A stretch of 64,000 bases of DNA, counting the filler, from Rhizaria sp. SCN 62-66 (Eukaryota): the NCBI GenBank assembly GCA_001724265.1. It is 3 parts of 3 records of this genome, joined end to end, with 100 filler letters (N's around TTAATTAATTAA, not from the genome) between each part and the next. Parts side by side here need not be neighbours in the genome. Positions count along the whole stretch, not along the records: positions 1 to 23,394 come from MEDY01000431.1; positions 23,495 to 46,690 come from MEDY01000432.1; positions 46,791 to 64,000 come from MEDY01000483.1. One strand, given 5' to 3'. The notes below the pieces were generated by a model that worked only from the letters and a program-made list of their open reading frames with translations, did not search any database and had not been told where the DNA came from. The stretch's first letter is position 1; every line of letters starts with the position of its first letter. Of the stretch, positions 13,466-61,000 are shown one piece after another. Made by a program: the position numbers and the translations under genes.

Positions 13466-16400
13466 ATGAACTACATTTCCTACGGCGCGGCTGGCGAGGC
13501 ACAGGAAGTGTACTACTCGCCCGAGCAGGTGCGCCATGCCACGCAGTCGCTTGCGCACCGCCTCGATGCCCTGCAGCGCACCACGGCCGGCTTCTCCAGC
13601 AACTCCGCCTCTGGCGGGCACAGTGGTGTGTTGGATCTGCTTCCCGCCTCCTCAGGAATCGACTTCACGCTCGCAGCGCGCCACCGCATCATCCAACCCA
13701 TCGCATCGGCCTTGCCTACCCACTACCAGTCCCACGGCACTCTTGCAGGCGCCGACGCAGCTGGTGTGGAGCTCGCGAGCGGCGGGGCGCCCGACGCGAC
13801 GGCGTACGCGTTCTCTGACCCTTTTTCGAGCATCTCGCGGCCGCTGCTACTGGGCTCGCCCGCCGAGCGCCGCCGCCTCGACGGACGCGTCAACGCGCGC
13901 CTCGCCGCCGCAGCCGCAGCCGCGCACGCCCATAGCCACAGTCACATTCACCTTCGCAGCCACAGCAATACCCCATCCGCCCCTCCGACCGTTCCCTCCA
14001 CGCCCGCGACTGCGGCTGCAGCCGCGGCTGCTGCTGAAGACGACGGGACTGAGGCCGCGGTGGCGAGGGCCCGGGGGGCGCTGGCGCGCGCGCGGGCGCG
14101 CACGGAGGCGACCGCCGCCGCCGTGGCCGCTGCAACGACTGTCAATGCCAGTGCGTCCAGTGCGCGCCACAGCGGCGTCAAGAAGGGGAGGCGTGCCAGT
14201 GTGACCGTTGCACCTGCGACAGCACCCACATCAGCATCAGCGTTAGCGTTGGCATCTGCCCCCGGCCACAGCCGTGGACACAGACAGCACGCATGCAGTC
14301 GCAGTCCCACATCCGCCGCCGCTGCCCACAAGAACACCACTGCCACTGCCACTGCTACCGTCCCTGCCAGTGCATCTGCGGCCCAAGCCACGGCGGCCCA
14401 CGCGGCTGCCTCTGGCGGCCTGTCTGCGGCCCACGGCTACCTGCTGTCGAACAGCCGGCGCGCGTTCGGCCAGCCCTACGCCGCGCCCCTGCTCCACGAC
14501 GCCGCGCCCCTGCTCCACGTCAATACCCCCGCCAGCGCCAGCGCCAATGCCTCTGCCCACCCCAGCGCCCGCGGCAACGCGAGCCTTGCACACATCGCGG
14601 GCACTGCGCACGTGGCCGCTCTGGCTGCAGGCGCGAGCGCTGCCGCGCCTGCGGCTGCAACGGTGACCGTGGCCGTGACCGAGGCAGGCGGCTTCTCGGT
14701 GCGGCACGTGCTGGTGCCCACGGTCACCATCGCGCCCAAGCAGCCCGCCGCCGCCAGAGCCTCTGCAGCGAAGCGCGCCACAGCGGTCAGCGACATCGTG
14801 ACGCCGCTCACGGCCACTGCTGCCGCTGCGGGGTCAGGGCTTACGGCCACCAACGGCGGGAGTCAGCTCGCGACTGGCACTGCGACTGGGACTGCCACTG
14901 GCACAGGGGCGACTGCAGCTGCGCCGACCCGAGCCGCAGCTCTCGCGAACGCGACCGCGGCAACGGCGCAGCAGTCAGGTGCAAGATACATCGGCGACGC
15001 TAGCGGTGTTGACGGCGGCGTCTCGGGCGTGGCTGGCGTCGAGTACTCTGCGACCTCGACCTCGACCGCGACGGGACCTCTTTGGTCGCATCCACCGAAG
15101 CCGTCGCGCGCAGCCGCGTACCTCAACGCCCGCGCCGCCGCCGCGCGCGCCGCCGCCACGGCCAGTCTCGCTGCCGCGGCTGTGACGCCCGCGGCCGTGA
15201 CGGCCAGCTCTGTCGGCACCGGTCCCCCCGCCGCCGAGACCGAGGGCAGCGCTGGCGGCGGCGCTGGCGACAACACCGGCGGCGACAGCAGCAGCGGCGG
15301 CGGGGATCACTGCTAGCTCTGTCGCGGGAACCACGTCCGCGGGCTAGACTGTCAGTGCACGTGCCACCGCAGGCACGCGCACGGTCACGCCCACGGTCAC
15401 GGTGGCCACGGTGGTTACAGCGGTCACGGTGGCCACAGGGGCGCGTTGAGTCTGCGTCAGCCGGCGGGCGGGAGCGACCACGCGCTCGCCGAGGCGCGCG
15501 CGCTGCAATCGCACATCGCCTCTCTGGTTGCCGCGCCGCTGCCTGCGGCACCAGCGCACGCGACGACCGACACTGGCGCTGGCTCTGCTGGTACAAGTTT
15601 TGGGTCACCTGCTGCTCACGGCCACGGCCACGGCTCCGGTCACGGTCCTAACAAGCTCTTAGCACACGCGCGCCCACGGCCGCAGTCGCGGTCTCGGTCG
15701 CCGTCCCGGTCGCCACGGTGCGTGCGGTTTGCCGTCTCTGCCCGCGGTCACACCACTGCACCGACCGACACGACTGCTGTTGCTCGCGGTCACGGCCACG
15801 GTCACCCCGGTGACGCCCTAGCTGAGGGCCCGTCCGCGCACGACGACCCAGTCGCCAGCTACTACAACGACGAGTATGCGGCGCTGTACAGCCGGGCCAA
15901 CGTCTCCGTGGCCGACGCCGCAGCCGCAGCCGCCGCGGCCGCGCGGAGCCACCTGCCCCCGCGCCCCGCGGCCGCTGCCGGCGGTGCACCGGGCGGCAAC
16001 AGCAGTCAGCAGCTGCAGCGGCGGTGGCAGCAGCAGCAACAGCAGCGCGGGGGCCCGTTGTCCGCGGCCGTCGCTGCGCAGCGCGGGCGCTAGGTCGCCG
16101 CCGAGGCCGCGGCGGCGGGCGCGGCGGCCGAGGCGCGCACGGCCGCAACGGTGGCCGCGGCGCGCGCGGCGGCGCCTGGGGCCGCTGTCGCCGCAGCGAC
16201 AGCCGCGACTGCAGCCGCGACCGCAGCCGCGACTGCAGACACTGCGGTCACTAACAGCACGCGCGATCGCAGCTCTGCTGATAACGTGGGCACTGCTGGT
16301 GCTGCTGCTGTTAGTCTCCCGTCGCTCCCGTTGCCACTGCAGTCACCGCACCGCCAGCAACAGCAGCAGCAACAACAACTGCAACAACAACAACAGCAAG

Positions 16401-17029
16401 AGCAGCACAAGCTGATGCAGTTGCAGCACGGCATGTGTCTGTCGCCGCGCGAACTTCTGAGGGTGTACCGGCGCCAACAGGGCTACAACAGCTGCAATGG
16501 TAGCAGTAACGAGACTGCAGTGTCAAGCTTGCACGCGTTATCCCCGTCGCGCTCCCAGTTAAAGCTGCTGGCTCACTCGCTGTCGCAGCCTCGTTTGCTG
16601 CATTCACAGTCTCAGTCGTTGTTGCAGTCGCACCGGCTGCCGCCTCAGCACACGCTGTCTCCACTTAAAGGCGCGCAGCGGACACACGCGCAGCCGGGGC
16701 CGCTGCCGGCGTCGCTGCCGTCTCTGCAGCCCGGTACAGCGGCTGCTCACGGTCACTCTCCACACATTGGTCACGGTCATGGTGATGCATCGGCGTCGCT
16801 GCGGCCGCTGGACTCGCGCGCGATGGCTGGACTGGCCTTCCCACCGCGTGCCAATGTTGGTGTTGGCGGTACGTTGAGCGCACGGGGCAGCAATGACTCA
16901 TCTGTGGTCACGTCAGGCTCTGCGGCCCAGGGGAGTGAGACCGATAGGACGGTGCCCGGGGGGCAAAGGGGGGACTTGACGCTTGCGCAGGTTCTTTCCG
17001 CGATGAATCTGAATCGGGTCAAGCGGTAA
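13466..17029 (+). CDS. Low-complexity Ala/His/Gln-rich protein, ~1187 aa, with 2 in-frame TAG codons (15314, 16091)
   Basis: Track ORFs 13466-15316, 15446-16093 and 16151-17029 share one frame. The intervening codons contain no TAA or TGA, and composition is continuous across both TAGs. Stop is TAA. Confidence 0.7.
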
Positions 17030-22825: not shown

Positions 22826-23394
22826 ATGCAACTGCGTTCGACTCTGTTGCTTCTGCTGGCGGCTGCCATCATGGGCAGGTACGTTTCCACTCTTTCTTTG
22901 TCCCGCTACCCCTCCTCTGTCGCCCAGTAATCGCTCCCCCATCCCCAGTCTCTCACCTCGCTCTCGTTGTTCCATACTCACGCCATCTCTTGTTGTACCC
23001 CGATTATCGTTCACGTCACCTCCCTTACAGCCTCGCCATCCAGACCCCCGGCGCGCAGGGCGCGCTCCAGGTGAGCCCCAGCTTCCTGGCGCTGCGCTCC
23101 CGCATCCACGCCCTCGCCGCGGGCCCCGACGGCACCACCACCCCTGTCGTGGACTCCAAGGCCCCTATCGTTGACTCCAAGGCTCCCATCGTTGACTCCA
23201 AGGCCCCCATCGTTGACTCCAAGGCTCCCATCGTTGACTCCAAGGCCCCCATCGTTGACTCCAAGGCTCCCATCGTTGACTCCAAGGCTCCTATCGTTGA
23301 CTCCAAGGCTCCCATCGTTGACTCCAAGGCTCCCATCGTTGACTCCAAGGCTCCCATCGTTGACTCCAAGGCTCCCATCGTTGACTCCAAGGCT
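22826..23394 (+). CDS. Secreted repeat protein, 3'-truncated at contig end; exons 22826-22878 and 23031-23394
   Basis: Signal-peptide-like MQLRSTLLLLLAAAIMGSLA is completed across a GTACGT...CAG intron and continues in frame into (VDSKAPI)n. Confidence 0.75.
23149..23394 (+). repeat. 21-nt coding tandem repeat, about 12 copies, running into the contig end
   Basis: Units of GTTGACTCCAAGGCYCCYATC; variation is confined to third codon positions. Confidence 0.95.
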
Positions 23395-24853: not shown

Positions 24854-27800
24854 TCACTGCTCCTTGTACGCCACCTTGAGCACCGCGGCCAGCGTCTTGG
24901 GCGCCACCACGAACACTTCCTCCCAGTTCACCTGAGCCGCGCTACTTGCAGCCGCACCGGAGCCACTTCCACTCTCGGCACTATTGTTGTCGGCGTTCGC
25001 ATTACTCGCGTTGGCGTTAGCGTTAGCATACCCGGCGGCCGGGTCCGCGACAGCGGCCCGGAGCGCGGCGTACTGCGCGACGAGCCCACGCGCGACGGTG
25101 GCCTTGACGGCCGTGCGCTGCCGCGGGTCCGAGAGCCGCGACGCGAAGGCGAAGGGCAGCAGCGCCGTCGCCGCCGACGCCGCCGCGGCCGTCGCTGCCT
25201 CGTCCTCCTCCTCGCCGGCAGTGCTCGCGCTCGCGCTGAGAGGGCTGCCGTCGCCGGCAGAGTCCTTTGTCGCCGCCGACGCCGCCGCGGTGCTCGCGTG
25301 GAGGTTGATAGTGTTGGGGGGCATCTTGGCGGCAAAACGCTGCAGTGCTTGACGCAAGCTCTCGTAGCTCATGCCAGGCCTCTGCGCCAACGGCACCACA
25401 CTGTTCGCGCCTGCGGGGTTGGCCTTGCTCTTAATGCAAGCCGCGCGCCATTCGGCAACCTCGGCGAAGACGAGTGCGAGCCCGGCGCCCCTGGCCGAGG
25501 AGCCCAGGTCCTCTGCCGCGGCGGCGCGCGCGCTGGCGGCCAGCGCGGCGGCGATCGGCGCGGTGTAGGCCGTCGGGACGGGCGCGCCGTGCAGGGAGGA
25601 CTGCAGCAGACTAAGGCAGTTGCTGTGGATGACCGAGGCCTCGCACGCGCTCAGGGCGCGCAACGAGCTCGACACAGAGCCAGAGCCCGTGCTGCTGCTG
25701 TTGCTGTTGTTTGCGTTGGCGTTGGTGGTGGCGATGCTGGCCTCGCGCGCGAGCACGCCGGCGAAGCGCACGAGCGGCGTGACGGCGGCCTCGGCGAGCG
25801 CGGCGGCGTCGGCCTCGGCGTCGACGGCGCTGAGCCCCGACAGCTGCTGGCCCGCGGCGCCGATCATCGGCAGCGCGGCCGAGCCCGCGGCCGAGGCGAA
25901 CACGCCGTAGCCGTACCCGCCGCCGCCGTACGCCGACACGCCGCCGAGGCCGTGGCCGTGGCCGTGCGCGGCGGCGGCGGCGTCGGCGGCGGCTGCGGGC
26001 AGCGGCGGCGGCGGCGTGCGCACTGGCCCCGGACAAGGGTATGGCGCGACGGGCGCGGTGACGAGCGCGGCCATGTACTGGCGCAGCAGCGCGACGCACG
26101 CCACGAAAGACTGCGGCGGCAGCAGGCTCGCCGTCAGAGTCGGCAGCGGCGAGTCCAGCGACAGCGACAGGAACGCCGCCAGCGACGCCTCGGTCTCCGT
26201 CTCCGCCTCGCTCGCGCCCGCGCCCGCGCTGGCCGCAGCAGTGCCGCTGGCGCTGGCGCTGCTTACGCCGGCGCCGGAAAGCGGTGACTGCGCGCTCTTG
26301 TCGGGCATGAGCGTGAGCGCGGCGAGGCGGCCGCACGTGGCTTCGGAGAGCTTCGCGGTGAGCAAGCCCTGCGCGCGCGAGTAGAGCGACACGCACAGCG
26401 ACTCCAGCTGCGTCAGGAACACGGACGGCACGCTCACGCTCACACTCGCAGTAACAGTAACAGTCCCGGGCTGAGACGCGGCGCTGGCGCTGCGGGAGAG
26501 GCTGCCGGCGGCCACCACAGCAGCCGCAGCGCTCTGGTTCGGGGCGGCGGCGCTACCCGGACTCACGGCAACTGCGGCTGCGGATGCGGTGCTGCCGTGC
26601 GGCGTGAGCAGCGTGGCGAGCGTGGCAGCGTAGTACAGCAGCACACCGCGCACCGCGCAGAGCACGAGCAGGCGCTTCTCCTGCGCCAACGCGGCAGCCA
26701 GCGCGGGCAGCACCGCGGGCGCCAGAGTGTCCAGGAAGAGCGACAGACACAGCGAGACGTCCATCGCGGTCGGCGCAAGTACTGTCGTGCCTGCCGTCGC
26801 TGTCGCCGCCGTCGCAGAGGTTGAGGAAGCTGCAATGGCAACGGCAGTGCTGTTTGTGGTCGTAATGTTGTTGTTGTTTGCGCTGGAAGGGATGAGGTAC
26901 CACGAGCTGTTGTTGTTGCTAGGATTACCACTTGCGCCAGCGCTCACGTTGCTCGGGCTGGTGGCGGGCACAAGAGCGTTTGAGTAGCTATTGGTGTTGG
27001 AGCTCGAAGCGAGCGAGGGAACGAACGGCACGCACACGCTCTCGCATTCGCTCCCCGCGGTCTGATTACACCTCGTGTTCGCCGCGCTGGAAGCAGTGGT
27101 GGAGGTGTTGTTGGCGTAGTCGCGCAGCCGTACCCTTAGCTGGGCTAAGAAGCACGCGTCGCCCTCCTCCGCGCTGAGCGTCGCCACAGGAGCAGCCTCC
27201 GCGTTGTCGACGTGGGTGCTGTTGGCGCCAGCGGCCGCAGTCTGCGCGGCGACCACAAGCGCCCCGCCCGGCCCCGTCGCAGCGGCCGTGGCCGTGGTCG
27301 CGGCAGTGAGCAGTGACGTCAAGAGCGCGCGCTCGCCGCGCACGGCCTCGACGGCGGCCGAGAGCGCGCGCGTGGCGGCGGCGAAGCACTCTGTCTCGCT
27401 CGCGGGCGCCACCAGCGCCGCCGCGGCAGACTCAAAGGCCGCGACCGCCGCCGACGAGCCTGCGGCGGCAGCAGCAGCCGCGGACGACGAGGCACTGGCA
27501 GAGCTGCTATGACTGCCGCCGCTATTGCTGGACTCATCGAACTCGCCGCCACCCCAGAAGGCGGGCACCGCGTCGTCGCTCGCGCCGCCGCTATACCCGC
27601 CGTATCCACTGCTGCTCGAGTTGTTGTTGGTGGCGGCATTGGCGGCGCTAGTGACTGTGAGCAGGCCGCGTTTGGCGACCTCGCCGCGCTGCTCCGCCAA
27701 CAGGTGCAGGAACTGGCAAAACGCGGCGGGCGCGGCGGCGGCCAGCGCGCGCGCCGCAAGGCGGTGGCCCGCACTCGCGGTGGCCGCCACCGCCAGCGAG

Positions 27801-28960
27801 CCGGGGCCAGTCCCTGCACTTGCGCCAGCGCCAGAGGAGGCGGTGACGGGGCTGGGCGCCTCGTGGTGGTGGTGGCTAGGGCTGGTGAGGCTGTGGTTGC
27901 TGTCTCGGCTGGCGGGAGAGTTGAAGCCGAGCGCGGCGGCGGCCCCGCGGTGCGGCTTGACTTCCGCGGCAAGCCAGTCCGCAAGCGCAGCGACGCCCGC
28001 GGCGAAGGCAGTGTGGGCCGCGGTGTGGAACGGCACGCAGAGCGGCGCGAGTGCCGGCTTGAGCTGCGCGAAGGTGAGGCAGCGCGAGCGGACGAACACT
28101 GAGCGGGACAGCGCGCGGAAGAAGAGCGGAAACGCAGACGCCACGGGAGCCGCAGCGGTCGAGACAAAGGTGGGGGATGACGAGGCGGCGCCCGGGCCGT
28201 TACTGCTGCTGCTGCTGCTGCTGTTGTTTGAGTCGAGAGTGTCGGTGTTGCTGTTGACGTTGTTGTACGCAGCGTTGATGTGGTTAAACGTCACACTGCT
28301 GCTGCTGTTGCCGCTCTGCAACTGCTGCTGTTGATGATGGTGGTGCTGCTGCTGTAGAGGCGGGCGGTACGCTGGCCCCGCTGCGAGCGCCTCGGTTTCT
28401 TCTGCAGTGAGCCTGTAGCCCTCGACGAAGGTGCTGGCGAGGTGGAGTCGTGCGTCCGCGCGCGCCTTTTCCGCAACCAACGCGCGCGTGCTCTCGCGAA
28501 CCGCGGCGCTGGACCGTGTCGCCGCCGCCAGCCGGTCGCTGATAGCGTCGCAGGTCGACTCGAGCGCCGAGACCGTCTCTTGCAGACTGGCGATTTGCGA
28601 GTCGAGGCAAGAGAAGACGTCGACCGAGGACTGGTACAGCGAGATGGACTCGTTCTCGAGCTTCTCCTGCAGAATTAGCGCGTCGGGCACAATTGACTGT
28701 GGGTACGCTGCAGCGTCGCCGGCCGCCGAGGCCGCGGTTGAGCCCGCGGCGGTCGCCGCCGAGGCGGTGGCGGCGAGGTGGCTGTGTGAAGGGATACTGG
28801 AGACAATCAAGTCGGAGTACTCGACGAGGCCCTCGATGACGTCGTCGTTGTCCAGGAAGGAGCCGATCTCCTGTGCAAGGATCTTTTTCGCCTGCCGCTG
28901 CACGGCTGACGCGTGCGGGCTCAGCGGCGTGGCCAGCGGCGCGGGAGAACGGAAAGACAT
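24854..28960 (-). CDS. COG6: Conserved oligomeric Golgi complex subunit 6-like protein with large low-complexity insertions, ~1368 aa
   Basis: N-terminal AKKIL, then the coiled segment LQETVSALESTCDAISDRL...FVEGYRLTAEETEAL...FFRALSR...RSRC and C-terminal SRLSDPRQR...YAALRAAVADPAAGY follow the COG6 pattern as I recall it. Stop is TGA. Confidence 0.7.
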   Translation of the reverse strand: MSFRSPAPLATPLSPHASAVQRQAKKILAQEIGSFLDNDDVIEGLVEYSDLIVSSIPSHSHLAATASAATAAGSTAASAAGDAAAYPQSIVPDALILQEKLENESISLYQSSVDVFSCLDSQIASLQETVSALESTCDAISDRLAAATRSSAAVRESTRALVAEKARADARLHLASTFVEGYRLTAEETEALAAGPAYRPPLQQQHHHHQQQQLQSGNSSSSVTFNHINAAYNNVNSNTDTLDSNNSSSSSSSNGPGAASSSPTFVSTAAAPVASAFPLFFRALSRSVFVRSRCLTFAQLKPALAPLCVPFHTAAHTAFAAGVAALADWLAAEVKPHRGAAAALGFNSPASRDSNHSLTSPSHHHHEAPSPVTASSGAGASAGTGPGSLAVAATASAGHRLAARALAAAAPAAFCQFLHLLAEQRGEVAKRGLLTVTSAANAATNNNSSSSGYGGYSGGASDDAVPAFWGGGEFDESSNSGGSHSSSASASSSAAAAAAAGSSAAVAAFESAAAALVAPASETECFAAATRALSAAVEAVRGERALLTSLLTAATTATAAATGPGGALVVAAQTAAAGANSTHVDNAEAAPVATLSAEEGDACFLAQLRVRLRDYANNTSTTASSAANTRCNQTAGSECESVCVPFVPSLASSSNTNSYSNALVPATSPSNVSAGASGNPSNNNSSWYLIPSSANNNNITTTNSTAVAIAASSTSATAATATAGTTVLAPTAMDVSLCLSLFLDTLAPAVLPALAAALAQEKRLLVLCAVRGVLLYYAATLATLLTPHGSTASAAAVAVSPGSAAAPNQSAAAAVVAAGSLSRSASAASQPGTVTVTASVSVSVPSVFLTQLESLCVSLYSRAQGLLTAKLSEATCGRLAALTLMPDKSAQSPLSGAGVSSASASGTAAASAGAGASEAETETEASLAAFLSLSLDSPLPTLTASLLPPQSFVACVALLRQYMAALVTAPVAPYPCPGPVRTPPPPLPAAAADAAAAAHGHGHGLGGVSAYGGGGYGYGVFASAAGSAALPMIGAAGQQLSGLSAVDAEADAAALAEAAVTPLVRFAGVLAREASIATTNANANNSNSSSTGSGSVSSSLRALSACEASVIHSNCLSLLQSSLHGAPVPTAYTAPIAAALAASARAAAAEDLGSSARGAGLALVFAEVAEWRAACIKSKANPAGANSVVPLAQRPGMSYESLRQALQRFAAKMPPNTINLHASTAAASAATKDSAGDGSPLSASASTAGEEEDEAATAAAASAATALLPFAFASRLSDPRQRTAVKATVARGLVAQYAALRAAVADPAAGYANANANASNANADNNSAESGSGSGAAASSAAQVNWEEVFVVAPKTLAAVLKVAYKEQ

Positions 28961-47565: not shown

Positions 47566-47574
47566 AAAAAAAAA
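47566..47574 (-). terminator. RNA polymerase III oligo-T terminator
   Basis: T9 on the minus strand immediately follows the tRNA discriminator base. Confidence 0.8.
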
Positions 47575-47647
47575 TTCCCACTACGGGACTTGAACCCGTG
47601 TCTCAGCAGTGAGAGTGCCGTATACTAACCACCTATACTAAATGGGA
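47575..47647 (-). tRNA. tRNA-Glu(CTC), intronless, no encoded CCA
   Basis: Acceptor stem TCCCATT/AGTGGGA, anticodon arm CGGCA-CTCTCAC-TGCTG, T arm ACGGG-TTCAAGT-CCCGT, and a D loop with TGG. Confidence 0.95.
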
Positions 47648-49026: not shown

Positions 49027-52000
49027 TCAACCTGGTGTCAGGTCAATATCAAGCTTGTCACCAGCAATCTTAGCTTGCGCTTGAGCATACTTCTTAGCGT
49101 CAGCAATGACAGCCGCGGATACTTCGACAGCAGACTGCGTTGCGTCCACCGTGGTGCCCAGCGCAGTCGTTGTAACGTCGCAACCTTGCTCCAGCATCAG
49201 CGCAATCCGAGCGCCACGCTGCGCCTCAGTCAAAACTTCCGTCATCTCATTGTCTTGCCTACTGTCAGCAGTAGCGTCAGCGGTATCAGCGCGTTCAGAC
49301 GTGACAGTGGTGACATCAGCACGGGCGTCATCTTGAAGCGTCCGCATCATATTAGCTTCGGTGGAATGCTTGTTCGTACCACCCGTAGTAAATGTAAACG
49401 CCGACGCTGCGTCAACAGCACGAGCAGTTGTCGCCTTGACACCTGCAGTGGTACTGACGATGCTAGCTTTATCAATGCGGGCCTGGTGCGCACGCGCCAT
49501 TTCAATACGCCAGGCGCGTACCACGGGACCACTTTCCTGTCCTTGTGCGTGCGCCTCGCGGAGTGCGTTGCGCAGCGGCGTGAGCTGCGCTTCTTCCTTC
49601 GACAGCATTTGGAAAGCGACAACAACGATGGCGATGAACGCAACCACCAACATGCAAATGAGTACTGTGACTACAGTTTGAGCGGTGTCACCGACCGTGC
49701 TGACAAACAGGAAGTTTGCAAGGAAGAAGATCATGAATGAAGTAAAGAGTGAAAACAGCTCAACAAACTCAGGAATCTTGTTTTCAAAAGGCTTCGCTGC
49801 GATTTGTCCAATAATACACACAAAAATAAGCATTGATGCAAGCATTAACTGAGTGTGGAGCGCGCCCGGGAAGAAGACTGAAATAGCAACAATAATGACC
49901 TTTCGTGCCATCTCCATGAGGAACCAGTAGTAGCGCGAGGGCTTATAGCCGCGGTACAAAAAGGCCATCTGCGACTCGAACACCTTCTTCTTGTTGCGCA
50001 TTACTGCGGACGCACCTTGCACCGGCATCATGACAAGGTTGCGGTTGCGGTACAGCACAAACCAGGCAAAGAATGGAATGCCCAACACCCAGAGGATAAG
50101 CATCGGCATGCCCAACGCAGCTATAAAGAGGATGTGCTGGGAGGAGTAACATATCTCCATCATCTCTCCTAAAACTACCTTAGTAGAAGGGTCAACGGTG
50201 CCACCAATGTTCTTGCATGAGAGCACATTAAAAAATTGGCGGGTAAGGTTCGGGTGGATCATAAACATGACAACAGTAATCGTGGTAATAACGTAGCCAA
50301 AGAACTCAGACAGAATCTGGTTGTAAAGCGACTCAGCAACGCTTACACGGACACGCATCTCAGCTGCAGTAACTTTCGGTGGCTCGGATTTGAGGCGTTT
50401 AGCACGCTCTTTCTCAAACATGGCCTTTCCATTCTTCTCTCCATAGCTGTGCACATACCAAGCTACCTGCGCATCAGCGCGTACGCGCTGGAACGCGCGT
50501 TCACGCCGTAACACGCGTTCTCGCAGCAGCTCTGCGTTATAGAGCGTATCAAAGGATAGCCGGGATAGTAAGCGCATGTTGTCCAAGTCATATTCGCTCT
50601 GCACAATTTTAGCAAACTCTTCCGTTGTTGACGCGTTAGCTTCATTGTGCGAGCGTTTTTGATCATCAAAAGCATTATTATTTTTAACAATAATGCCATA
50701 CATTTCAACTTCACGGGCTGTACGTTCGAAGATTGCCTCGCGGCTTTCGCCTGAAGTCGAATACGCGCTTGCCAGCGCAGCCTCACTCACGCTATAATCA
50801 CAAATAATATCACGCAGAAACACAAACGCCGTATCGTCGAGAGCGTGTCCGACATGCTTTGTGGCTGGTGCAACAACTAATGGGTCGTCATTATCAACAG
50901 TGTCGGCAAATTGATTTACTTCCCACCGTGTAGCATCGTTTTCAATGGTCTCAATGAGTCGCCTATTGCAAGCGGCTGCAAGTACAGCAAACTTTTGCGC
51001 CTTTGCAATCGCCTCCGCCTCACGCGATCCTTGATCTACGCACTTTTCATTGGCTGCAGCGGAGTCCATACAAGCAGCATCATAGTCAGATTCACTGTCA
51101 AAGAGTTCGTTGATTTCAAACTGAAATTGACTGTTGTCCTGATTCGGCACAGAGTCTGTTGCACTACCGTTCCTACCACTCAGAGCAAGCGCAGGAAATT
51201 CAGGTGTGCCGTTGCTGCTGGGAGCACGCAGCACATTGGGAAAGCTTTCATTCCTCGGGAGCTGCGCTGTTGCTAAGTTGAACTGATAAGGCCTAATGAC
51301 GGGCGAGTGCGTTTCGGAGATTGAAAGCGCAACGCGGCCAGAACCAGTTGTTGCTGCTTCAGCGTCCGCTGCAATAACACGTCTCGCCTCAAGAGCGCCA
51401 AGCGCTGGACTGCTATTTCTACTTTGTTTGCGACCGACAAGTTGCTGCCGCGCTATTCCAGCGTTTGTGCTACGTCGCAGTGGACTAACAACTGTTGGCC
51501 GCGGCTGTACGTCACCAACACCAAAGAATGCGTTTCTCGACTCAACGTCATCTGGGCCTAAGGTAGCACTTAAAAGAGAGCCTGCAATAGGACCGTTGCC
51601 AATGCTTGACAGAGATCGCCGTTTTAAAAACGCCGGCATTGGGGGCTGTTCCGGTGGTGCAAGCGGGTATAGTCCATTCGATAGGTCGTTTTTGTTCTCA
51701 ACATTAATCCGCGCAAGAAGGGTGAGCTCGCTTTCTGTGCGCTGTAAGCGAGGATTAGGTGTGCGGCGCTGACGGCGTGTGCCACGCGTCTTGCGCGCAT
51801 GTTCGAGCTCTGACTGTGCACTCTGCTTAATATCGAGATTAATACCAGTGTGAACATCGTTCTCAATCCCAAGTGTCGCCTCAGTCTTTCGCCCAGCTAA
51901 AATGCCCAGATTGTCTTCATCGGCAACGTGATCCCAGAGACTAACTTTAAGCTCATTCTCATTCTGCACGCGCTGCGCGGCACGATCTTGGACCACAGTG

Positions 52001-55000
52001 GCCTTATCACGCTGGCGTTGAAAACTCTCGAACTGGGTAACAATTTCAACCATGAGTCGACGCTGTTCTGCGACCTCTGCCAAAACGAATTTCTTGTAGC
52101 CACGCTTGACGCTAAAGTAGCGGGGTGCAAAAAACAACAAAGGCAATATCACACCAAACAGTGGCAACGCCATAATGCCAATTGAGGTAACCCAGAAGGG
52201 TTTCATTGATGGATTGTCGCCGAGGAAACAGTCCAGCGAGAGCATCGCAGTGCCAACCCCGGCAGCTGTGTCGGCACCATCAAACAACCCATCAAGAAAA
52301 CCGGGCCATTTGAGGTCGTAGCGTGACGCAATTGACATCACTTGGAGGCCAGCCATTGCAACTTTGAACAACAAAGGCACAGCTGGCGCTGGCAGCTCGT
52401 TCATTGATTGCTTGCCATCTGTAATCTGCTTCCAAGCTAAAATGCCACAGCCAATAATGGCAGCGAGTGCACCGGCAATAAGAATAAACCACGCAAGCGC
52501 GGGATCGTTGCAACGACCACACTTAAAAACAGAGTCTTTGCCATAGCCAGGGAGACAAACTGAGCAGAGAGGACCCGTGTGACCTTCCGCGCATTGATTT
52601 CCTGGCTGACATGTGTTACTAAGACAGTATTCAAAGGAAGTAATCGCGTGACGGTAATAACTGCTCTGAACAGTAGGCTCGTTGACAAAAGCAAGCTCTT
52701 GGCTAAGCACGGTGTTGGCAGCGTTGAGATGTAAAACAGCGCTTGCAACAAGTTGAGACGCCTCTTCTTCATCATCATGTTCCGGTGGGACAACATCAAT
52801 GGTGATGATGTAGACAGATACGAGATCGGCATTGGCCGCGCTAACTGCAACTGTGGTTGGTTGCACCATGCTGTTATTCGTGACTATTGTAGGATCAAGA
52901 TCTGCTGATACAAACACAAATCGGCCACGCCGCCAATCTGTGTCATCAAATAATGCTTTCATAGCAAGCGCCAAAGCGTTGCGACGCGCATCATTAGCGG
53001 GGACGTTAGCGTTAACACGTACAGGGAATGAAAACCTTACAACACTTGTCAGATTCTTAAACGTGACCGAAGGTGAGTAGTAGTCGAGCGACACAACGTT
53101 GTAGACAGTCGTACCAGCATTCAAGCAGTTGCCACCAAGCATGCATGTCTGACATACACCGCGCGCGTCCTTATACGAACCCACTTTGCACTGACAGTAC
53201 GAATAGTCGCTCGTGTGCTCTGCGCCCAAAGGACATGCCTCGCACTGCGCACTGCCTTCACTAGCAGCGTATGTACCAGGCGCGCACTGCATGCATGCTT
53301 CAGCACGTTCTTGCGAGAAAGTGCCACGAGGACAACGCACGCATTCCTGATAACCCAAGCCTGAGTAAGTACCTGTGGGACAGGGGCTACAACTAGCTGC
53401 GCCTGTAGTGTTGGAGTAGTAGCCGGGCTGACACTGGCGGCAGAGCGCTTGGGACCAGAGATCGTTGTAGTATCCAGGTTCGCAATTAACGCAGTGGTAA
53501 TCGTTGTTGCGCTGGCCGGGTGGACACTGTACATACGAGAGTAGGATAGTCTCACGTGACATGTTGCCATAGCGCTGTAACAATGTCACTGCGCGGTCGA
53601 CCGAGGCGTCTGCGGGCGTCGTACAGAGAACCTCACGATGAGGGTTTGTCGCTGTGTGCGTCACGTTGGTGCACGTCAAGCCACCAATCGAGATTGTAGC
53701 ACCAGATGCGCCAAAGTTATCACCATGGAGCATAATTCGGTTCCCACCAAAGCGGTTGCACTCCTTGATAATCTTTGTCGAGATTTGCTGACAGCCGTAA
53801 ATCTCCGTAATAACGGGAATAGAATACGTAATGCGATTGCGCGATTCTGTGCGTTGCGATCCAGCCTTGACAATCAGAGCAAGACTAGAACCAGAGCCAA
53901 TCGGAAGTTTACATGTCAACAATTCGTTGGAGATCTTGTCTATGGCAGTGCACTGACGGCCACTTACCATGACAGAAAGAGGCTCAAGGAAGCCAGTTCC
54001 CGTGACTGTGAGGCGTACATCCCCACCATCGGTTGGACAGCCAGCTGTGTTGCCCAGCAAGATGTTGTCAACACCGCAGCCGTAAACTGTTTCGACCGTG
54101 GGCACCTGTGGGTATGAGTAACGATCAGTGGAGTAAACGATGCGGCCTGCAATCGTAAGTTTAAAGTACAAATCAACACGATTTACATTATCTTGAGTAC
54201 GGCAAACAAGGATATTTGGTGAGCCTTGATAGCGGGAAAGCTCGGAGTTAAACACACACTCAAATGGGAAGTCTGTTGTCGAGGAGGCCAGACCGTATCG
54301 AATCATCAAAATCTCTTTCCGTTCTAGATACAAGTTGGAGATTTCAAAGCCAATATCTTCGCCAAGAGTAGTCATACTAACATAATTATCCGTTCGCTGA
54401 CCAGAACCCGCAGCTGTTACAGTATGCAGCGAAGATGGCACAAAGTGGTGTAAAGGGTAGCTGATGCGGACACGATTGTTATCACCAATACGCGCCAAAT
54501 CATCCAGTGCTTCAGTGCCGGCCCAATTCCAGTTCCACATGGTGCAATCAATATCGCCAGCAAGATTCGTTGCGCTATTGCGCTGTACGCAAAACTGCAT
54601 GCGGAGATATAAGTCTCCACCTTGACCTGCACTTAGTGTGCATTTGACCTTGAGGAAAAGGTTTGCGTCTGACGCAGCGTTTGGATTGAGGTCGGGCACG
54701 GGCTTCACGATAATGTTCGAACACTCATACGTCAATAGCTCAGGATTGCTATATAGGTTTTGATTCGGGTTTGTGTACTGCACACGCGTGATGTATGGTG
54801 CAGCAACGTTGGCACCCGCACGCAAAGTCAGCTGCACAGTTTGACCACCCTTGGCGCTGTCAGGTACAATCTCTCGTGTGTCTGCATTGTACGCAACGTA
54901 GCCAACAAAGCTGGGTACGTTCACAGGCGGGTCTTCAAGCGTGATAAAGGGCGTGCAGACGTAGGAGCCAAACGTATTAATACACTTTGACTGTGAACCA

Positions 55001-58000
55001 TATAGTGCCGCGCAATCAACAAAGTAGCGACCACCAAAGAACATAGGATCGCACTCGTCAATGTCTTGACACGATGGCTCTGCAGGTAGCCATGCTCCTG
55101 TCTCAGCACAGCGGCGCTCAAACACAGAAGAACCATCAGTAAATGTAAAGCCAGACTGACACTTGTACACGGCGCGCGATTGGAAACGAGTGGGACCAGA
55201 AACATAGAATGTGTCAAAGTTATATGTGACAGGTAAACCATACTTGATTGGGCCGGTAAGATTGAGCTGACCCCAGTCAATTGCGCTACACACTGGTGCA
55301 AGAGCAGGAACCCAGCCCTCAGCGAGAGTACCACAACGGCGCGTCGAAGCGATGACCGCATCCGTGAACGCGTCGCGAGTTTCGTAGCCGGGCTGACACG
55401 AGTACGTTGCAATCGTTCCGTAAGAAAGTGGAATACCACCGTTGTTGCCCGTGTTAAGGGCATCACGATAAGTGACACTAATACCATTTGCAGGAACAAA
55501 TAAGCTCTCACATTGGTTGATTTGGCATTGTGGTGCGGCAAGTGGAAACCAACCACGCGGAGTGCATTCACGACGTGCGGCAAGAACACGCACGTTTGAC
55601 TGAATAATTTCAACAACATAACCAGTACCATCTGTAAGATTGTACTCTGCGTAACGCAAGTTGTAGCCTGCGTTGCAGCGGTATTCAACCCAAGATGTAT
55701 TCAAATACGGTCCGTGATTACCATTGTTTGACACAACAATGGTTGCACCATTGATGCTGGAGGGTATGCCGCAGTTATATGGTGAACATGTGCGTGGCGA
55801 CGATGACCTATCTCCTTTTGCTGTACACGTAATGGAGGCCTCCGAATGACTCATTACAGCACCATAATCGCAGAAGTATGTTGCTGTGACACCATATGCA
55901 TTCATCAATGTTGTAGGCGTCTGTGTGAAAGAGCCTAAGGTGACCTCCGTTAGCGTCGGGCATGGGCGTGGCACACAACGTGGTGTGTCGACAGGTTGCC
56001 ACCCTTCAGCAATCACACACTGACGGGTTGTGACAAGAGAGTCAGCTGTCCACATAAAACCATCGGCGCAAGCATAAGTCGCAATTGTATCAATAGGATA
56101 TGCGTTGGTCAGGGGGTTAAAGTCAATGGGTAAACCATAGCGTGTAAATGAAATAGGTTTCATTGTCGTAATGTCAGTGTAAATGCGCACACAAGTGTTC
56201 GAGCGGCAAATTGGGGTAACACCCGACCACGTCTGGTTGGCACGACATACGCGATGTAAATCGCCGCTTGTTCGCTCGTATTGGTCGAGACAAACATGGA
56301 TTGCTGTTGACTGATACTTGCGCTCACCATACGGCTGTGCTGAGTAAGTAATCTCACCAACATTGTTGGCAAGAGCAAGTTGCGGACACTCAAGCGGCAC
56401 GCATGCTGGCGCGGAGGAAACACTCCAGCCGCCGGCCGTGCAAATGACAATGGGAGAGGCTGTTAGCATAAATCCTTGAACACAGCCATACTCATACCGA
56501 GAGCCAAACGCGGTTGCATTGCCCTCGGGGGCAGCTTGCACTAGGACTGGCTGCGTGCCAAAGTCAGGGAACGCAGGTGGCACTGGCCCGCAGTTGAACA
56601 CCCCGCAGGCGGGCGGGGGTGCAGACCAGCCTGAGGCAAGGCAAGTTATGCGCTGGACGCAGTTGGAGATAGGTGGCGACGAGGCAGTATTGAGCGTACA
56701 CGTAACATTGGGCTGGCCTACTGTGGTCAGTGCATAGCCGAAAACACACACTACGGAAGCTTCTGCAGTATAGTGTGTCAAACCAAAGCCATTGTCTTCG
56801 TACGTAATAGCGCCCTGGTTGATCGTTGGCATAGCCTTGCAGTCTATGAGAGTAATTTGAATTGGCTCTGAGAGATACGACATAAATGGATCACCAGAAA
56901 GTAGCGTAATGTTAATACGCGGCAACACGCCACCTTCAGTAGGATCTGCGCCAAGTGGATGTGTGTAGAACAAGCACTTGAACCAAAAGCTGCGGCTTGT
57001 TGTGCGGATGGCAGTAAGTTCAAGTCCAGTTGTATAGAGTGGTTGCCAGGAGTTACTCTCGGGCACCCCACCTGTGATGGAGTTCACTAGCGCGCCATAG
57101 CATTTCGTGAAGTTCGAGTCAACAGTAATATTGACATGTACAAACTGTCCAACACCGACAATAGCCTCAACAGGTAGTGTTGTAAACGTGAGCAGCGTCG
57201 GTTCAAGCACGTGAATCCCTGTCGGCAACGTCGCCATGTTAAAGCGGTTCTCAACCGAAAACGGATTCGTGACGTACACACCCAGGAATGACTGGCCCGT
57301 TGGGGCTGTTGTGAGCGCGACATTCTCAAGAGGTTGTGTACAGTACAAGTGCAACGTCATGTTTTCAACACCAATTGGCACAGACAGTGACACCGCAGCA
57401 GTAAAAGTTGCAGGCAGCATGTTCGATGCAAGTCCAAGCGTACAAGCTGGATCAGATACCGTGATCAGGACGGGTGAAGGGGCGACAGGTGCGGGCAATA
57501 CGCGCAGATTGAACTTATGGATGTTTTGTACCGCGACACGACTCAAAGTAACAGTGGAAGACGTCGGATAAGTCTCAAAAGGTGGAAGGGCGGCATCTTC
57601 AAGCCACATTGCACCACGGACGCGGAAAGGAGCGGTGATAAAGCGGTCGTACCAGTTGTTTGCGCTGTTTGTGATAGTAATGACCGATGGGTTGTTTTCA
57701 GTCATAACGCGGCAGTTGACAATCAGGTCCAACAACGTCATTGTAAAGGTAAAGTTGAAAGCGAAAGCACCATAAGTAAGATGTTCATCGACGAGTTCGC
57801 CTGTGATAAGGCGGAATCCGCAAGCTGGGTTTGGACCAGTTGCATTTTTTGGCAGCACGTCCATCACTATAGTTGTAACATCCGCAGCAACAGGATCTAA
57901 GCTGACGGTGAAGCGCCAGTCGCGATTTGCTACAAGATCACCGTTGAAGGCCAGACGTGGTTCGACACCTTCAGTAGTAAACTTGATGCTCCCACGGACT

Positions 58001-61000
58001 TTTAGAGGCAACGAAATTGACGGAAGCAGATAGTTTCCGGCAGCAAGCTCCGCGTGTAAATAAACAGGGTCACTGTTCGTGACTGAGCAGGAGACATATA
58101 TATCCTTTTGCGCGTCGCCGACTGCATACGTGAGTTGCGCAGTGTAAGCAAATGTCGCATTGCCTGACTCAGAGTAGGTTGTAAACCCACATAAACCGTT
58201 TGTCTTTGTAAAAGTAACGTGAATAACGGTCAGCGCCAATACAGAGGGAATAACCCGCACACGTACTCGCGTTACGTTTGTTGCTGGCACTCGCAGAACG
58301 TATGGGGTTGGTAACTCAGCGGCGCCTGAGGGCACCGCAATAGTTTCAAATTTATCCCGTGATAATACATCTGTGATTTCTCGGCTTGCGCCCACAATGT
58401 TCGCAGGAACAAAAAAGTCCATGCCAGTTAAGCCCCACACAGGCATCGGACCAAACACTTCCCCTGCGTAAGCTGCGTTCGTAATAGACAGAATAGAGCC
58501 GACATTATGCGTGCGGCGACATACCATACGTGCGTAAAGCGGTTCTGTGAGTGACTTTTGTTTGAACACTGGCTCACGCGTGTAGAGCGACGCGCCGTCG
58601 TTAAGCAGGAACACGCAGTCGCCAGGAGTTGTGATTTGCGTAATAGGCACCGACTGCAACAATTTAGGCGTTGGCACAAACTCTCCAGTGACAATGTATG
58701 TCTCACGCACAACAAAGCTGAGGTATGACGTCGTTGTCTTGTTGTTGACTGTCAGCCGCAGTTCACCCTTAGTTTGCAGCCTACTAGACTCTAAGCGGTC
58801 GTAGTACACATGAGACTCCTCAGTGAACACGGCGATAATGCGTGGTGGATCAGACGCGGGATGTAGACAAGTAATCAAAAAGAGGATCTCAGAGGTGCTT
58901 GCTGCAAGAATTAAGTCTTTTGCGAGTGTATCAGCTGCATTTGCTGACGAAGATTTAAAGACGCAATCTGCCGACGGGTTTGTAAAACTAAGCTGTAATA
59001 CACCGGTATCGGTAAGTGGGGGCTGAAAAGTAAGCGCCATGGGCACCGTAACAGCGCGGGGAAATGAAACAGTCTTAGTACCATCAGTCAAGTCAAGCGT
59101 ACTTGCAGCAGTCGTGTCTGAGGCCGGCAGCGCAGCCGTCAGTGTAATGCGACCGGTAATACGCACTTGAAGCGCCGTCCACTAAGCAATAACAATACCC
59201 GTCGCGTCGTCGGTGATGCGCGTGGCAAATTGCTCAGAGTACCGCATGACGGTACAGACTACGGTGAGGAGAATAGTCCCAGACTCAGTGTCTTGAGGCA
59301 TCACCGTTGCATTAACACTCGTAGCATTTGTGTTGCCGTTAAAGTAGCATGGTGCGTTGTTAAGCAAGTACAAGGAAACAGTCATCTGGTTTGCGCGACT
59401 AATAGGAAGAACCCACTCCAGTGTAAGTAAAAGCGGCAAGGTATCAACAAAGTATTCGTGAGTGTCAATTTCACTTAGTGGCGTTACTCCGAGTGCGTTT
59501 GGAGCACGCGCTGCGTCGTACACGGCGGCCTTTGGCGTGAAGAGGATTTTAATTACATTTGCATGGTGTGATAGCCGCGCGGGATAGATATAGGAGTCAC
59601 CAACGCGCGTCAGCGTGAATTCAATGTTCATGCTCAGTGCAGCCGCTGCAGCACTGCAGACTGCAAGCACGGCATGACGTTGTTTGTTGGTCGAGATAAG
59701 ATTGACGCGCTCGGTTGTTTGCTAAAACAGAACACCCGTAGCGATTAACGCGCGGTACTCATTATCATTCTGAATGTGCAACAGCTTGGGCAAACTTGCA
59801 ACAGACGCAAACGCACACGCGTCGCCACCAGCCGAGTGCCTGTAGTTATTGGTTGTGTAGCGCTCAACGCGGACTTCGGTGTCAAACTCGATGTAGAAAG
59901 GCGTATATATAGGAAGAGTTGTCGGTGTTACAATTTCCGTGGGCCTTATTGTAAGCATGCGTACGGTAGAACGCAACCATGCTGTAATATAGTTTGTCGT
60001 AATGACATCGTATGAGCCGTCATTACCTGGATATGTTACCATAAGTGCAATGTTGTCTGTTGGTGCTACACTCTCGTAGCAGTTAATGGCGATCGTCGCC
60101 AAAGATGTCAGTTGCACTGTTAGTGCGCGCTGACGAGTTTCTGTGCTACTAGAGGAAACCATCAGAGAGCAAGGGACACCCAGAGGAAGACCGTTGCGCA
60201 ACAGCTCCAGCTATACTGCGGAACGAGTCAAAAATGCAGGCTGTGCAATTATAGCTAAGTCAACTGGTCGAGAGTCTGCACCAATCTCGAACTCGAGTGC
60301 ATATGGCATATTGGGCCGCACAAACACCGTGCCAACAATGGGACGTACCGCCATGGAAGTGCCCACAAAACCTTGATCGACGGGAATATCCATGTTGATT
60401 GTAACACCAGGACTATAAGGCACAGAGCAACGCATCCGCCCAACAATAATGCCATTGTCAACAATGCGGCTAAGGTCATCCGGGAGGGAGATTGCACCCT
60501 TTAACTTTGTTGTGGGACCACCACCAGTGACAGCATCATAGAAGCGACAAGTGCCACTGGCTGTCGAGAAAGAAAGAGTGTACGAGGTGTCCTCAGTCAT
60601 CGGCACGTTAAAACGCAAGATAATATCCGTATCAGCACCAGCAGGGTAGGACTCGGGCTCTGTGTTGACGACAGCGCCAACACGCACTGTCGCCGTTATA
60701 AAATACGTTGGTGAGACGCGCACTGGCTCATTTAACAGATTTGGAAGACCTGCAGCATAGCCACCATCAAGCGTGCCGACCCAGGGCGTAAGTTCCACAA
60801 CAATAGGGTTGATAAACGTTGTCGCGGCGGAGCAACTAAGCATAAACGTTGTAGAGACGCCTGTGCGACTCGCGATGGAGACAACAGCTGCATCGCCACT
60901 CCCAACAACACAGGGTGCAGGACGTCCATCAAAGAGCCTCACACGCACGCGGAAGACCTGCGACTTACTAATCTTGGTAGCGTCTTGCAACACAAGTGGA

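What the first reader, a model, noticed from the sequence alone, without database searches (positions are those of the whole stretch)
13466..60213. Variant nuclear genetic code: TAG read as an amino acid while TAA/TGA remain stops
Seen: 10 in-frame TAG codons in four unrelated genes on all three contigs (15314, 16091; 29430, 29880, 30114, 30297; 35415; minus-strand 59182, 59722, 60211). In each case the same frame continues with coding-like sequence, and none of these in-frame interruptions is TAA or TGA. Known: UAA and UAG are usually reassigned together in nuclear codes. Reassignment of UAG alone is rare, e.g. Gln in the fornicate Iotanema spirale and Leu in an uncultured rhizarian. Inference: this organism, which I cannot identify, uses a UAG-only reassigned code and may be an undescribed instance.
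Basis: partly seen in the sequence, partly recalled or inferred. Interest (0 to 1): 0.93.

Follow-up and report, generated by a model that had tools for sequence, protein, structure and literature searches.

The report
Stop codon TAG read as sense
An uncultured eukaryote from wastewater-type metagenomes appears to translate the stop codon TAG as an amino acid (probably glutamine or a similar polar residue) while TAA and TGA still end genes, which is a rare kind of genetic-code change.

Summary
All 10 TAG codons sit where stated. The window is three contigs joined by N spacers. In 14 gene models (16,480 codons) the only in-frame stops are these 10 TAGs; the 14 terminators are 7 TAA and 7 TGA.

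Three genes give strong support:
- **ARM-repeat gene, 4 TAGs.** Thirteen homologues align across all four sites, and it folds as one solenoid.
- **GH47 gene.** The catalytic domain lies on both sides of its TAG.
- **14.4-kb gene.** A 77.8 % identical, gap-free orthologue has K, E and Q at its three TAGs.

The contig-2 TAGs are unchanged in DNA contigs of other samples. A relative's gene (L001) has two in-frame TAGs, one at the same aligned position.

Errors, pseudogenes, introns and chance ORFs are therefore poor explanations. The amino acid is polar: Gln scores best, Glu and Lys are not excluded, and Leu is unlikely.

No tRNA(CUA), eRF1 or rRNA is in the window, so mechanism and taxon stay inferred. 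A DDX55 tree puts the organism in an unnamed metagenomic clade.

Verdict: a likely new instance of a known, rare kind of code.

The parts
29406..31142 (+). ARM/HEAT-like repeat protein gene (578 codons) with 4 in-frame TAGs, ending in TAA
   Evidence: Translation. phmmer found 25 hits, 3 of which are this gene's own fragments cut at the TAGs. Thirteen homologues align across all 4 sites. AlphaFold2 gives pLDDT 82.3 and pTM 0.80, one solenoid, with the TAG sites in loops or at helix ends.
29430..29432 (+). in-frame TAG, codon 9
   Evidence: The column is gap-free, with S/L/S in 3 homologues. The same aligned position is TAG in L001. Unchanged in an X2/X3 contig spanning 29000-29724.
29880..29882 (+). 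in-frame TAG, codon 159
   Evidence: Bridged by an X4 DNA contig spanning 29685-30155 with 0 differences.
30114..30116 (+). in-frame TAG, codon 237
   Evidence: Gap-free column. Bridged by X2/X3 and X4 contigs.
30297..30299 (+). in-frame TAG, codon 298
   Evidence: The column holds R in 9 of 13 homologues, L in 2, and D and G once each. Bridged by X2/X3 and X4 contigs.
34128..45119 (+). GH47 (EDEM-like mannosidase) plus PA-domain protein gene, 3663 codons, 1 in-frame TAG, ending in TAA
   Evidence: Pfam GH47 at 4.2e-73 and PA at 3.8e-08. The N-terminal part of the GH47 domain (residues 250-338) lies before the TAG, and residues 711-855 lie after it.
35415..35417 (+). in-frame TAG, codon 430, inside a roughly 380-residue insertion in the GH47 domain
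   Evidence: Bridged by X2/X3 and X4 DNA contigs with no difference.
49027..63474 (-). Giant surface-type protein gene (Sushi, TIG, ephrin-receptor-like repeats, C-terminal membrane region), 4815 codons, 3 in-frame TAGs, ending in TGA
   Evidence: In frame 0 there are 0 TAA, 3 TAG and 0 TGA, against 160 and 309 stop triplets in the other two frames. Orthologue P0150 aligns gap-free to residues 1020-2219 at 77.8 % identity.
60211..60213 (-). in-frame TAG, codon 1088
   Evidence: The orthologue has K here.
59722..59724 (-). in-frame TAG, codon 1251
   Evidence: The orthologue has E here.
59182..59184 (-). in-frame TAG, codon 1431
   Evidence: The orthologue has Q here.
13466..17029 (+). Ala-rich low-complexity ORF (1187 codons) with 2 in-frame TAGs (15314, 16091); the weakest of the four genes
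   Evidence: No Pfam family. The frame stays the best-scoring one across both TAGs up to about 16300. Only 16091 passed the flank test.
4246..8646 (+). DDX55/SPB4-type DEAD-box helicase gene, no TAG, ending in TGA; control gene and marker used for the tree
24854..28960 (-). COG6 gene, no in-frame stop, ending in TGA (control)
31741..33462 (-). DcpS scavenger decapping enzyme gene, no in-frame stop, ending in TGA (control)
47575..47647 (-). tRNA-Glu(CUC), the only tRNA in the window; not a UAG decoder
   Evidence: ARAGORN and Rfam.

Best explanation
The organism (or a few closely related organisms) behind these contigs reads UAG as an ordinary, rare sense codon: about 0.6 per 1000 codons here. 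UAA and UGA remain the terminators.

The encoded residue is polar. Glutamine is my best guess (about 45 %), then glutamate (about 25 %) and lysine (about 15 %).

By analogy with other UAG-only codes, I infer two components: a tRNA with anticodon CUA, most simply a mutated tRNA-Gln(CUG), and an eRF1 that no longer recognises UAG well.

Shown here: ribosomes must pass the TAGs to make the conserved proteins, and TAA/TGA are the only terminators seen. Inferred: the tRNA, the eRF1 change and the exact amino acid.
For: 1. Only TAG interrupts genes. There are 10 TAG, 0 TAA and 0 TGA in 16,480 codons of 14 gene models. Terminators are 7 TAA and 7 TGA. Of the 10 models with no TAG anywhere, 0 end in TAG.

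2. ARM-repeat gene. Thirteen homologues (30-40 % identity) align across all four TAGs, with gap-free columns at codons 9, 237 and 298. The N-terminus before codon 9 and the stretch after it are both conserved. The model is a single solenoid, pLDDT 82.3.

3. GH47 gene. Parts of the catalytic domain lie on both sides of the TAG, in one frame.

4. Giant gene. P0150 is 77.8 % identical over 1200 residues without a gap and has K, E and Q at the TAG sites. All three can be encoded by a codon (AAG, GAG, CAG) one base away from TAG.

5. Not read errors. Four of five contig-2 TAGs are bridged without change by contigs of run X4 (another study), and four of five by X2/X3.

6. A relative shares the trait. 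L001 has 2 in-frame TAGs, ends in TGA, and its first TAG aligns with codon 9 of the window gene.

7. If these were nonsense mutations, 10 of 10 being TAG has probability 0.0016-0.0024.

8. Amino acid. Q > E > K under BLOSUM80, BLOSUM90, PAM70 and PAM30 at the three orthologue sites. Hydrophobic residues score worst at the four family columns. All four of those sites lie in loops or at helix ends.
Against: - No tRNA(CUA) is in the window; the single tRNA is Glu-CUC.
- eRF1 and rRNA are absent, and no whole genome is held.
- There is no peptide evidence and no usable RNA evidence (see Tried and rejected).
- The amino-acid inference rests on 7 sites, all at variable positions. The four family columns alone rank S and R above Q.
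- The terminator sample is small (10-14 genes), so occasional use of TAG as a stop is not excluded.
- The contig-3 gene has GC3 0.49, against 0.62-0.94 on contigs 1-2, so two related organisms may be mixed.
- X2 and X3 give identical figures and may be one data set filed twice.
Confidence: 0.85

Rival explanations
1. TAG is still a stop codon, or an ambiguous stop/sense codon, and is passed by leaky or programmed readthrough using near-cognate tRNAs. The early TAGs would then act as attenuators of expression.
For: TAG is rare, 10 in 16,480 codons. It is concentrated in one gene family: 4 in the 578-codon ARM gene and 2 in its relative L001. One TAG position is shared by two genes only 37 % identical. 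That is odd for a freely exchangeable synonymous codon; chance coincidence is about 2 x 4/480 = 1.7 % (my estimate). No tRNA(CUA) was found.
Against: Four readthrough events in one 578-codon gene, the first at codon 9, would leave almost no full-length protein. No shared downstream context exists; the next codons are CTC, GTC, TTT, CAC, CTC, ATT, ATC, TGG, CAA and CTG. Zero of 10 independent terminators are TAG.
Confidence: 0.08
2. The TAGs are removed or changed before translation, either because they lie in short in-frame introns or because the mRNA is edited.
For: The organism has spliceosomal introns: ALG3 has at least 2 and FeSOD has 1. One ALG3 intron ends in TAG. The GH47 TAG lies in a roughly 380-residue insertion relative to solved GH47 enzymes. 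I have no RNA read evidence across the sites.
Against: The three introns seen are AT-rich with GT..AG ends, whereas the 63-nt surroundings of the TAGs are 46-87 % G+C and coding-like. Codons 9, 237 and 298 of the ARM gene and all three sites of the giant gene occupy single gap-free alignment columns, which leaves no room for an intron.
Confidence: 0.03
3. The TAGs are nonsense mutations in pseudogenes, sequencing or assembly errors, or chance open frames in G+C-rich DNA.
For: Contigs 1-2 are 55-76 % G+C and have long chance ORFs on both strands. ORF 13466-17029 is low-complexity and has no Pfam family. TAG is the commonest single-step nonsense codon in these genes, at 52-55 %.
Against: There are no frameshifts and no TAA or TGA in 10,243 codons of the four genes. 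P(10 of 10 TAG) is 0.0016-0.0024. The orthologue is gap-free at 77.8 % identity around the sites. The TAGs are identical in other samples. One TAG position is shared with a distant relative. The contig-3 gene is 49 % G+C, where chance cannot give a 4815-codon frame.
Confidence: 0.03

Closest known systems
Iotanema spirale (Fornicata) nuclear code: UAG = Gln, with UAA and UGA as stops. This is the same pattern as 'genetic code 15', named in the abstract of PMC9523058 listed.
   Same: Only UAG is reassigned. UAA is kept as a stop. UAG is a minor codon: about 8 % of Gln codons in Iotanema (PMC5304391, section 8), and about 2 % here if it is Gln (10 against 553 CAG+CAA). Gln is the best-scoring residue here.
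   Different: The taxon here is unknown. The Gln identity is not established; Glu and Lys remain possible. The eRF1 GTS-motif change described for Iotanema (passages) could not be examined.
Rhizarian exLh (Sainouroidea): UAG = Leu
   Same: UAG-only reassignment in an uncultured protist, discovered from in-frame UAGs in conserved genes (PMC5304391).
   Different: exLh has 384 in-frame UAGs in 71 genes; here there are 10 in 14 genes. Leu fits poorly here. The orthologue has K/E/Q, the summed BLOSUM62 score for L is -6.5 against +1.4 for S and -0.9 for Q, and L is absent from the best eight residues at the orthologue sites under all four matrices.
UAG-only codes in ciliates (Hartmannula, Trochilia and Protocruzia: Gln; three TARA phyllopharyngeans: Leu) and in the green alga Scotinosphaera (Ser)
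   Same: UAG is sense while UAA remains a stop (PMC11687900, abstract and discussion passages).
   Different: In the ciliates UAA is the preferred stop (abstract); here TAA and TGA are used equally, 7 and 7. The window's DDX55 falls outside the green-plant clade. No ciliate sequence was in that tree, so a ciliate origin is not formally excluded. I have seen the Scotinosphaera claim only as one sentence in PMC11687900.
UAR = Gln codes (ciliates, hexamitin diplomonads, some ulvophytes, the aphelid Amoeboaphelidium)
   Same: Stop-to-sense change, probably to Gln (listed in PMC11687900).
   Different: Those codes also read UAA as sense. Here there are 0 in-frame TAA, and 7 of 14 genes end in TAA.

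Membership tests
UAG-only stop-to-sense nuclear code (Iotanema / code-15 pattern) | In-frame UAG inside conserved coding sequence | tested here: met
   Homologues span the 4 TAGs of the ARM gene. The orthologue spans the 3 TAGs of the giant gene. The GH47 domain lies on both sides of its TAG.
UAG-only stop-to-sense nuclear code (Iotanema / code-15 pattern) | UAA and UGA stay stops and never occur in frame | tested here: met
   0 TAA and 0 TGA in 16,480 codons; 14 of 14 gene models end in TAA (7) or TGA (7). L001 ends in TGA.
UAG-only stop-to-sense nuclear code (Iotanema / code-15 pattern) | UAG is not used as a terminator | tested here: met
   0 of the 10 gene models that contain no TAG at all end in TAG. 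The sample is small.
UAG-only stop-to-sense nuclear code (Iotanema / code-15 pattern) | UAG columns correspond to one amino acid (Gln) | tested here: inconclusive
   Q > E > K at 3 orthologue sites under four matrices. At 4 family columns the order is S, R, N, Q, K. Seven sites in all.
UAG-only stop-to-sense nuclear code (Iotanema / code-15 pattern) | Cognate tRNA with anticodon CUA | not testable with these tools
   The window holds one tRNA, Glu-CUC. No whole genome is held.
UAG-only stop-to-sense nuclear code (Iotanema / code-15 pattern) | Altered eRF1 N-domain (GTS, NIKS, YxCxxxF region) | not testable with these tools
   eRF1 is not in the window, and no genome is held.
Rhizarian exLh code (UAG = Leu) | UAG aligns with Leu or other hydrophobic columns | tested here: not met
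   K, E and Q in the orthologue. L scores -6.5 at the family columns and is absent from the eight best residues at the orthologue sites under all four matrices.
UAR = Gln codes (both UAA and UAG sense) | In-frame UAA as well as UAG | tested here: not met
   0 in-frame TAA; 7 of 14 terminators are TAA.
Scotinosphaera code (UAG = Ser, green alga) | Green-algal origin and Ser at UAG columns | tested here: not met
   DDX55 lies outside the 100 % supported green-plant clade. S scores at most -3 at the orthologue sites, although it ranks first at the 4 family columns.
Ambiguous codes with all three stops as sense (Condylostoma, Blastocrithidia, Amoebophrya) | In-frame UGA and UAA besides UAG | tested here: not met
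   None in 16,480 codons.
Programmed stop-codon readthrough | A single leaky stop with a conserved downstream context | tested here: not met
   Up to 4 TAGs per gene, spread from codon 9 to codon 1431, with no common following codon.

The most novel reading that the evidence does not exclude
These contigs may come from a eukaryotic lineage not yet sampled by named genomes. The evidence for that is a 100 %-supported DDX55 clade of 7 unnamed metagenomic sequences. In this lineage UAG may not simply be a spare Gln codon.

The TAG at codon 9 is kept at the same position in two genes that are only 37 % identical. Two further family members end exactly before a Q-rich column. Together these suggest that UAG positions are conserved.

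That could mean UAG is decoded inefficiently and used as an expression attenuator. Alternatively it could encode Glu or Lys, which would be a code not yet described, because UAG = Glu is known only together with UAA = Lys.
Probability: 0.15. Interest if true: 0.85.

Novelty: new member of a known kind. Interest (0 to 1): 0.65.

Why it matters
Nuclear codes in which UAG and UAA have different meanings are few, and each new case tests how eRF1 and tRNAs can tell the two codons apart. This case would come from an environmental, G+C-rich, intron-poor eukaryote present in several wastewater-type samples, so material for a genome, tRNA and eRF1 study exists.

There is also a practical cost. Public gene calls for this very DNA are cut at the TAGs: P0125, P0126, P0139 and P0151. 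Proteins of this lineage are therefore fragmented in databases.

Tried and rejected
- **Whole genome.** None is held. The cluster look-up for names of the relatives is switched off. The organism therefore could not be named.
- **Word-index search with the ARM protein.** No hit. The HMMER search then found the family.
- **Search for more DNA of the lineage.**
A2 gave one locus, L001.
  - Genome contigs with A2 gave nothing.
  - Genome contigs with the DDX55 alignment A3 gave 439 relatives, of which 80 were kept; all carry bacterial titles.
  - Viral contigs with A2 gave nothing.
  - Viral contigs with A3 gave 11 loci: ten at 38-44 % identity and one 37-residue fragment at 70 %. I did not examine them.
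- **Earlier notes of this scan.** Nothing on this genome or its look-alikes. The word search returned two unrelated prokaryote and phage notes.
- **Internal repeats in the giant protein**, tried as a way to read the TAG columns: none found.
- **ESM Atlas on P0127.** ARM-like clusters only, with no useful taxa.
- **PDB search with FeSOD.** The output carries no organism names.
- **Rfam.** Only the tRNA.
- **RNA evidence.** The poly(A) metatranscriptome run X5 has one contig (29622-29891) that passes TAG 29880 by only 9 bases. That is below the tool's 31-base bridging rule. No X5 contig bridges the other TAGs, and DNA carry-over cannot be excluded. I draw no conclusion from it.
- **Premature ends of family members P0128, P0134, P0135, P0140 and P0141** fall before polar, Q/E/D-rich columns. 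I could not see their DNA, so whether those ends are TAG codons is unknown. This is a lead only.
- **Literature searches** found no report of a UAG-sense eukaryote from sludge or wastewater. I did not ask for supplementary files, and they may hold more.

Full report
**What the window is.** It consists of three contigs joined by artificial spacers: N runs at 23395-23494 and 46691-46790, each around TTAATTAATTAA. It is eukaryotic. It encodes:
- a DDX55/SPB4 helicase, COG6, DcpS, and a GH47 (EDEM-like) mannosidase with a PA domain;
- ALG3 and an Fe-superoxide dismutase;
- a 4815-residue protein with Sushi, TIG and ephrin-receptor-like repeats.

ALG3 and FeSOD carry AT-rich GT..AG introns, while ORFs of 10-14 kb have none. 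A 7-kb stretch of contig 2 is held by runs labelled bioreactor, wastewater and activated-sludge metagenomes from several studies. No whole genome is held for the window.

**The observation.** With TAG read through, the pieces join into ORFs of 1187, 578, 3663 and 4815 codons. In 14 gene models (16,480 codons) I count 10 in-frame TAG, 0 TAA and 0 TGA. The terminators are 7 TAA and 7 TGA. For the 10 models that contain no TAG at all, so that the end does not depend on my assumption, 0 end in TAG.

A codon-usage score trained on TAG-free genes was applied to all 3,372 stop triplets in six frames. Nineteen had coding-like flanks on both sides. The other 11 (3 TAG, 3 TAA, 5 TGA) all lie antisense to a confident gene, a known artefact of Ala-rich G+C-rich coding sequence.

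**Gene-by-gene evidence.**

1. *ARM-repeat gene, 29406-31142, four TAGs.*
   - A full HMMER search gave 25 hits. Three are this gene's own fragments as called by others, cut exactly at the TAGs.
   - I aligned 13 of the other 22, leaving out 9 short or weak ones. They run across all four sites, and codons 9, 237 and 298 occupy gap-free columns.
   - The residues before codon 9 and those between codon 9 and the next Met are both conserved. Translation must therefore start at Met1 and pass the TAG.
   - AlphaFold2 on this alignment gives one continuous alpha-solenoid (pLDDT 82.3, pTM 0.80) with the four sites in loops or at helix ends.
2. *GH47 gene.* Residues 250-338 match the start of the GH47 domain of solved EDEM-type enzymes, and residues 711-855 match the next part. 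The TAG at codon 430 lies between them in the same frame, inside a roughly 380-residue insertion.
3. *Giant gene on contig 3, 49 % G+C.* Frame 0 has no TAA or TGA in 4815 codons, while the other frames have 160 and 309 stop triplets. The chance of the 1431 codons upstream of the last TAG being free of TAA/TGA is about 1e-18. P0150, an orthologue from another data set, aligns to residues 1020-2219 without a single gap at 77.8 % identity. It has K, E and Q at the three TAG positions.
4. *Low-complexity ORF 13466-17029.* This is the weakest case. The frame remains the best-scoring one across both TAGs, but it has no Pfam family and the region is 73 % G+C.

**Not errors, and not confined to one organism.**
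- DNA contigs of run X4 (a different study) bridge TAGs 29880, 30114, 30297 and 35415 without change.
- Contigs of X2/X3 bridge 29430, 30114, 30297 and 35415. X2 and X3 give identical figures and may be one data set.
- Only three differences were listed in 7 kb, none at a TAG.
- The one related locus found in the metagenome collection, L001, encodes family member P0127 (37 % identical). It has two in-frame TAGs upstream of the start that the public gene call chose, and it ends in TGA. Its first TAG aligns exactly with codon 9 of the window gene.

**Rivals.**
- *Pseudogenes.* Given the codons of these four genes, a random nonsense mutation would be TAG 52-55 % of the time, so ten of ten has probability 0.0016-0.0024. 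There are also no frameshifts.
- *Introns.* The three introns seen are AT-rich, whereas the TAG surroundings are 46-87 % G+C and coding-like. Six sites sit in gap-free alignment columns.
- *Classical readthrough.* There is no common downstream context, and four events in one 578-codon gene would abolish the product.
- *Ambiguous stop/sense use of TAG.* The 10-14 terminators seen cannot exclude it.
- *RNA editing.* Not tested, because the only RNA contig at a TAG passes it by just 9 bases.

**Which amino acid.**
- At the three orthologue sites, Q scores best, then E, then K, under BLOSUM80, BLOSUM90, PAM70 and PAM30.
- At the four family columns the ranking is S, R, N, Q, K, with all hydrophobic residues far behind.
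- The residues facing TAG (K, E, Q; S and L at codon 9) all have a codon one base away from TAG, as expected for a codon that arises by point mutation at tolerant sites.
- As an unverified lead, two family members end just before a column that is Q in 4 of 8 sequences, and another ends before an E/D column. I could not see their DNA.

I conclude that the residue is polar: Gln most likely, Glu or Lys possible, and Leu, Trp or Tyr unlikely.

**Who it is.** I built a DDX55 tree of 33 rows: the window, the 8 best unnamed hits, and 24 named or EukProt/MMETSP hits chosen from the 120 listed. The window falls in a 100 % SH-aLRT clade of 7 unnamed metagenomic sequences. That clade lies outside a 98 % supported group holding green plants, animals, chytrids, an ichthyosporean and amoebozoans, and apart from the ochrophyte stramenopiles. 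No rhizarian, alveolate or excavate sequence was in the tree, so those groups remain open.

The contig-3 gene has GC3 0.49, against 0.62-0.94 (mostly 0.74 or more) for the ORF models on contigs 1-2. It may belong to a related second organism that also uses TAG as sense.

**Comparison with what is known.** I read passages and section 8 of PMC5304391, the abstract and discussion passages of PMC11687900, and passages of PMC9161772. UAG-only reassignment is reported for:
- Iotanema (Gln);
- the rhizarian exLh (Leu);
- Scotinosphaera (Ser);
- Protocruzia, Hartmannula and Trochilia (Gln);
- three marine phyllopharyngean ciliates (Leu).

An uncultured ciliate reads UAA as Lys and UAG as Glu (PMC11687900 discussion passage; of PMC10553269 itself I saw only the search listing).

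The present case has the same outline as the Iotanema code. It differs from exLh in residue and codon frequency, and from the UAR = Gln codes in that TAA is a stop. Five literature searches found no report that fits this organism.

**Verdict.** This is most likely a new instance of a known, rare kind of code. The decoding tRNA, eRF1, exact residue and taxon remain to be shown.

Noticed in passing
window 23395-23494 and 46691-46790: The window is three contigs joined by two 44-N runs around TTAATTAATTAA. ORFs that touch these joints are artefacts.
   Followed up: yes
window 46791-64000 (contig 3) against contigs 1-2: The giant gene has GC3 0.49, while the ORF models on contigs 1-2 have GC3 0.62-0.94, mostly 0.74 or more. 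Contig 3 may come from a different but related organism that also has in-frame TAG.
   Followed up: partly
window 29430-29432 and L001 805-807: The TAG at codon 9 of the ARM gene sits at the same aligned position in a gene only 37 % identical to it. Family members P0128 and P0134 both end at one and the same alignment column, just before a Q-rich column. TAG positions may be conserved, and I have no explanation for that.
   Followed up: partly
proteins P0125, P0126, P0139, P0151: Public gene calls for this same DNA are fragments that start or stop at the TAGs, so proteins of this lineage are broken up in databases.
   Followed up: yes
window 700-2216 (-) and 11991-12980 (-): ALG3 has at least two AT-rich GT..AG introns and FeSOD has one, of roughly 160-240 nt, while ORFs of 10.9 and 14.4 kb have none.
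   Followed up: partly
window 35142-36288: The GH47 catalytic domain is split by an insertion of about 380 residues of low-complexity sequence. The whole protein is 3663 residues and has a PA domain near residue 3100.
   Followed up: no
window 23147-23394: A 21-bp tandem repeat, 11.8 copies at 96 % match, runs to the end of contig 1. In one frame it reads APIVDSK repeats.
   Followed up: no
window 29282, 30854, 34306: These are the only three differences between the window and run X4 over 7 kb. The change at 34306 is also seen in the RNA run X5.
   Followed up: no
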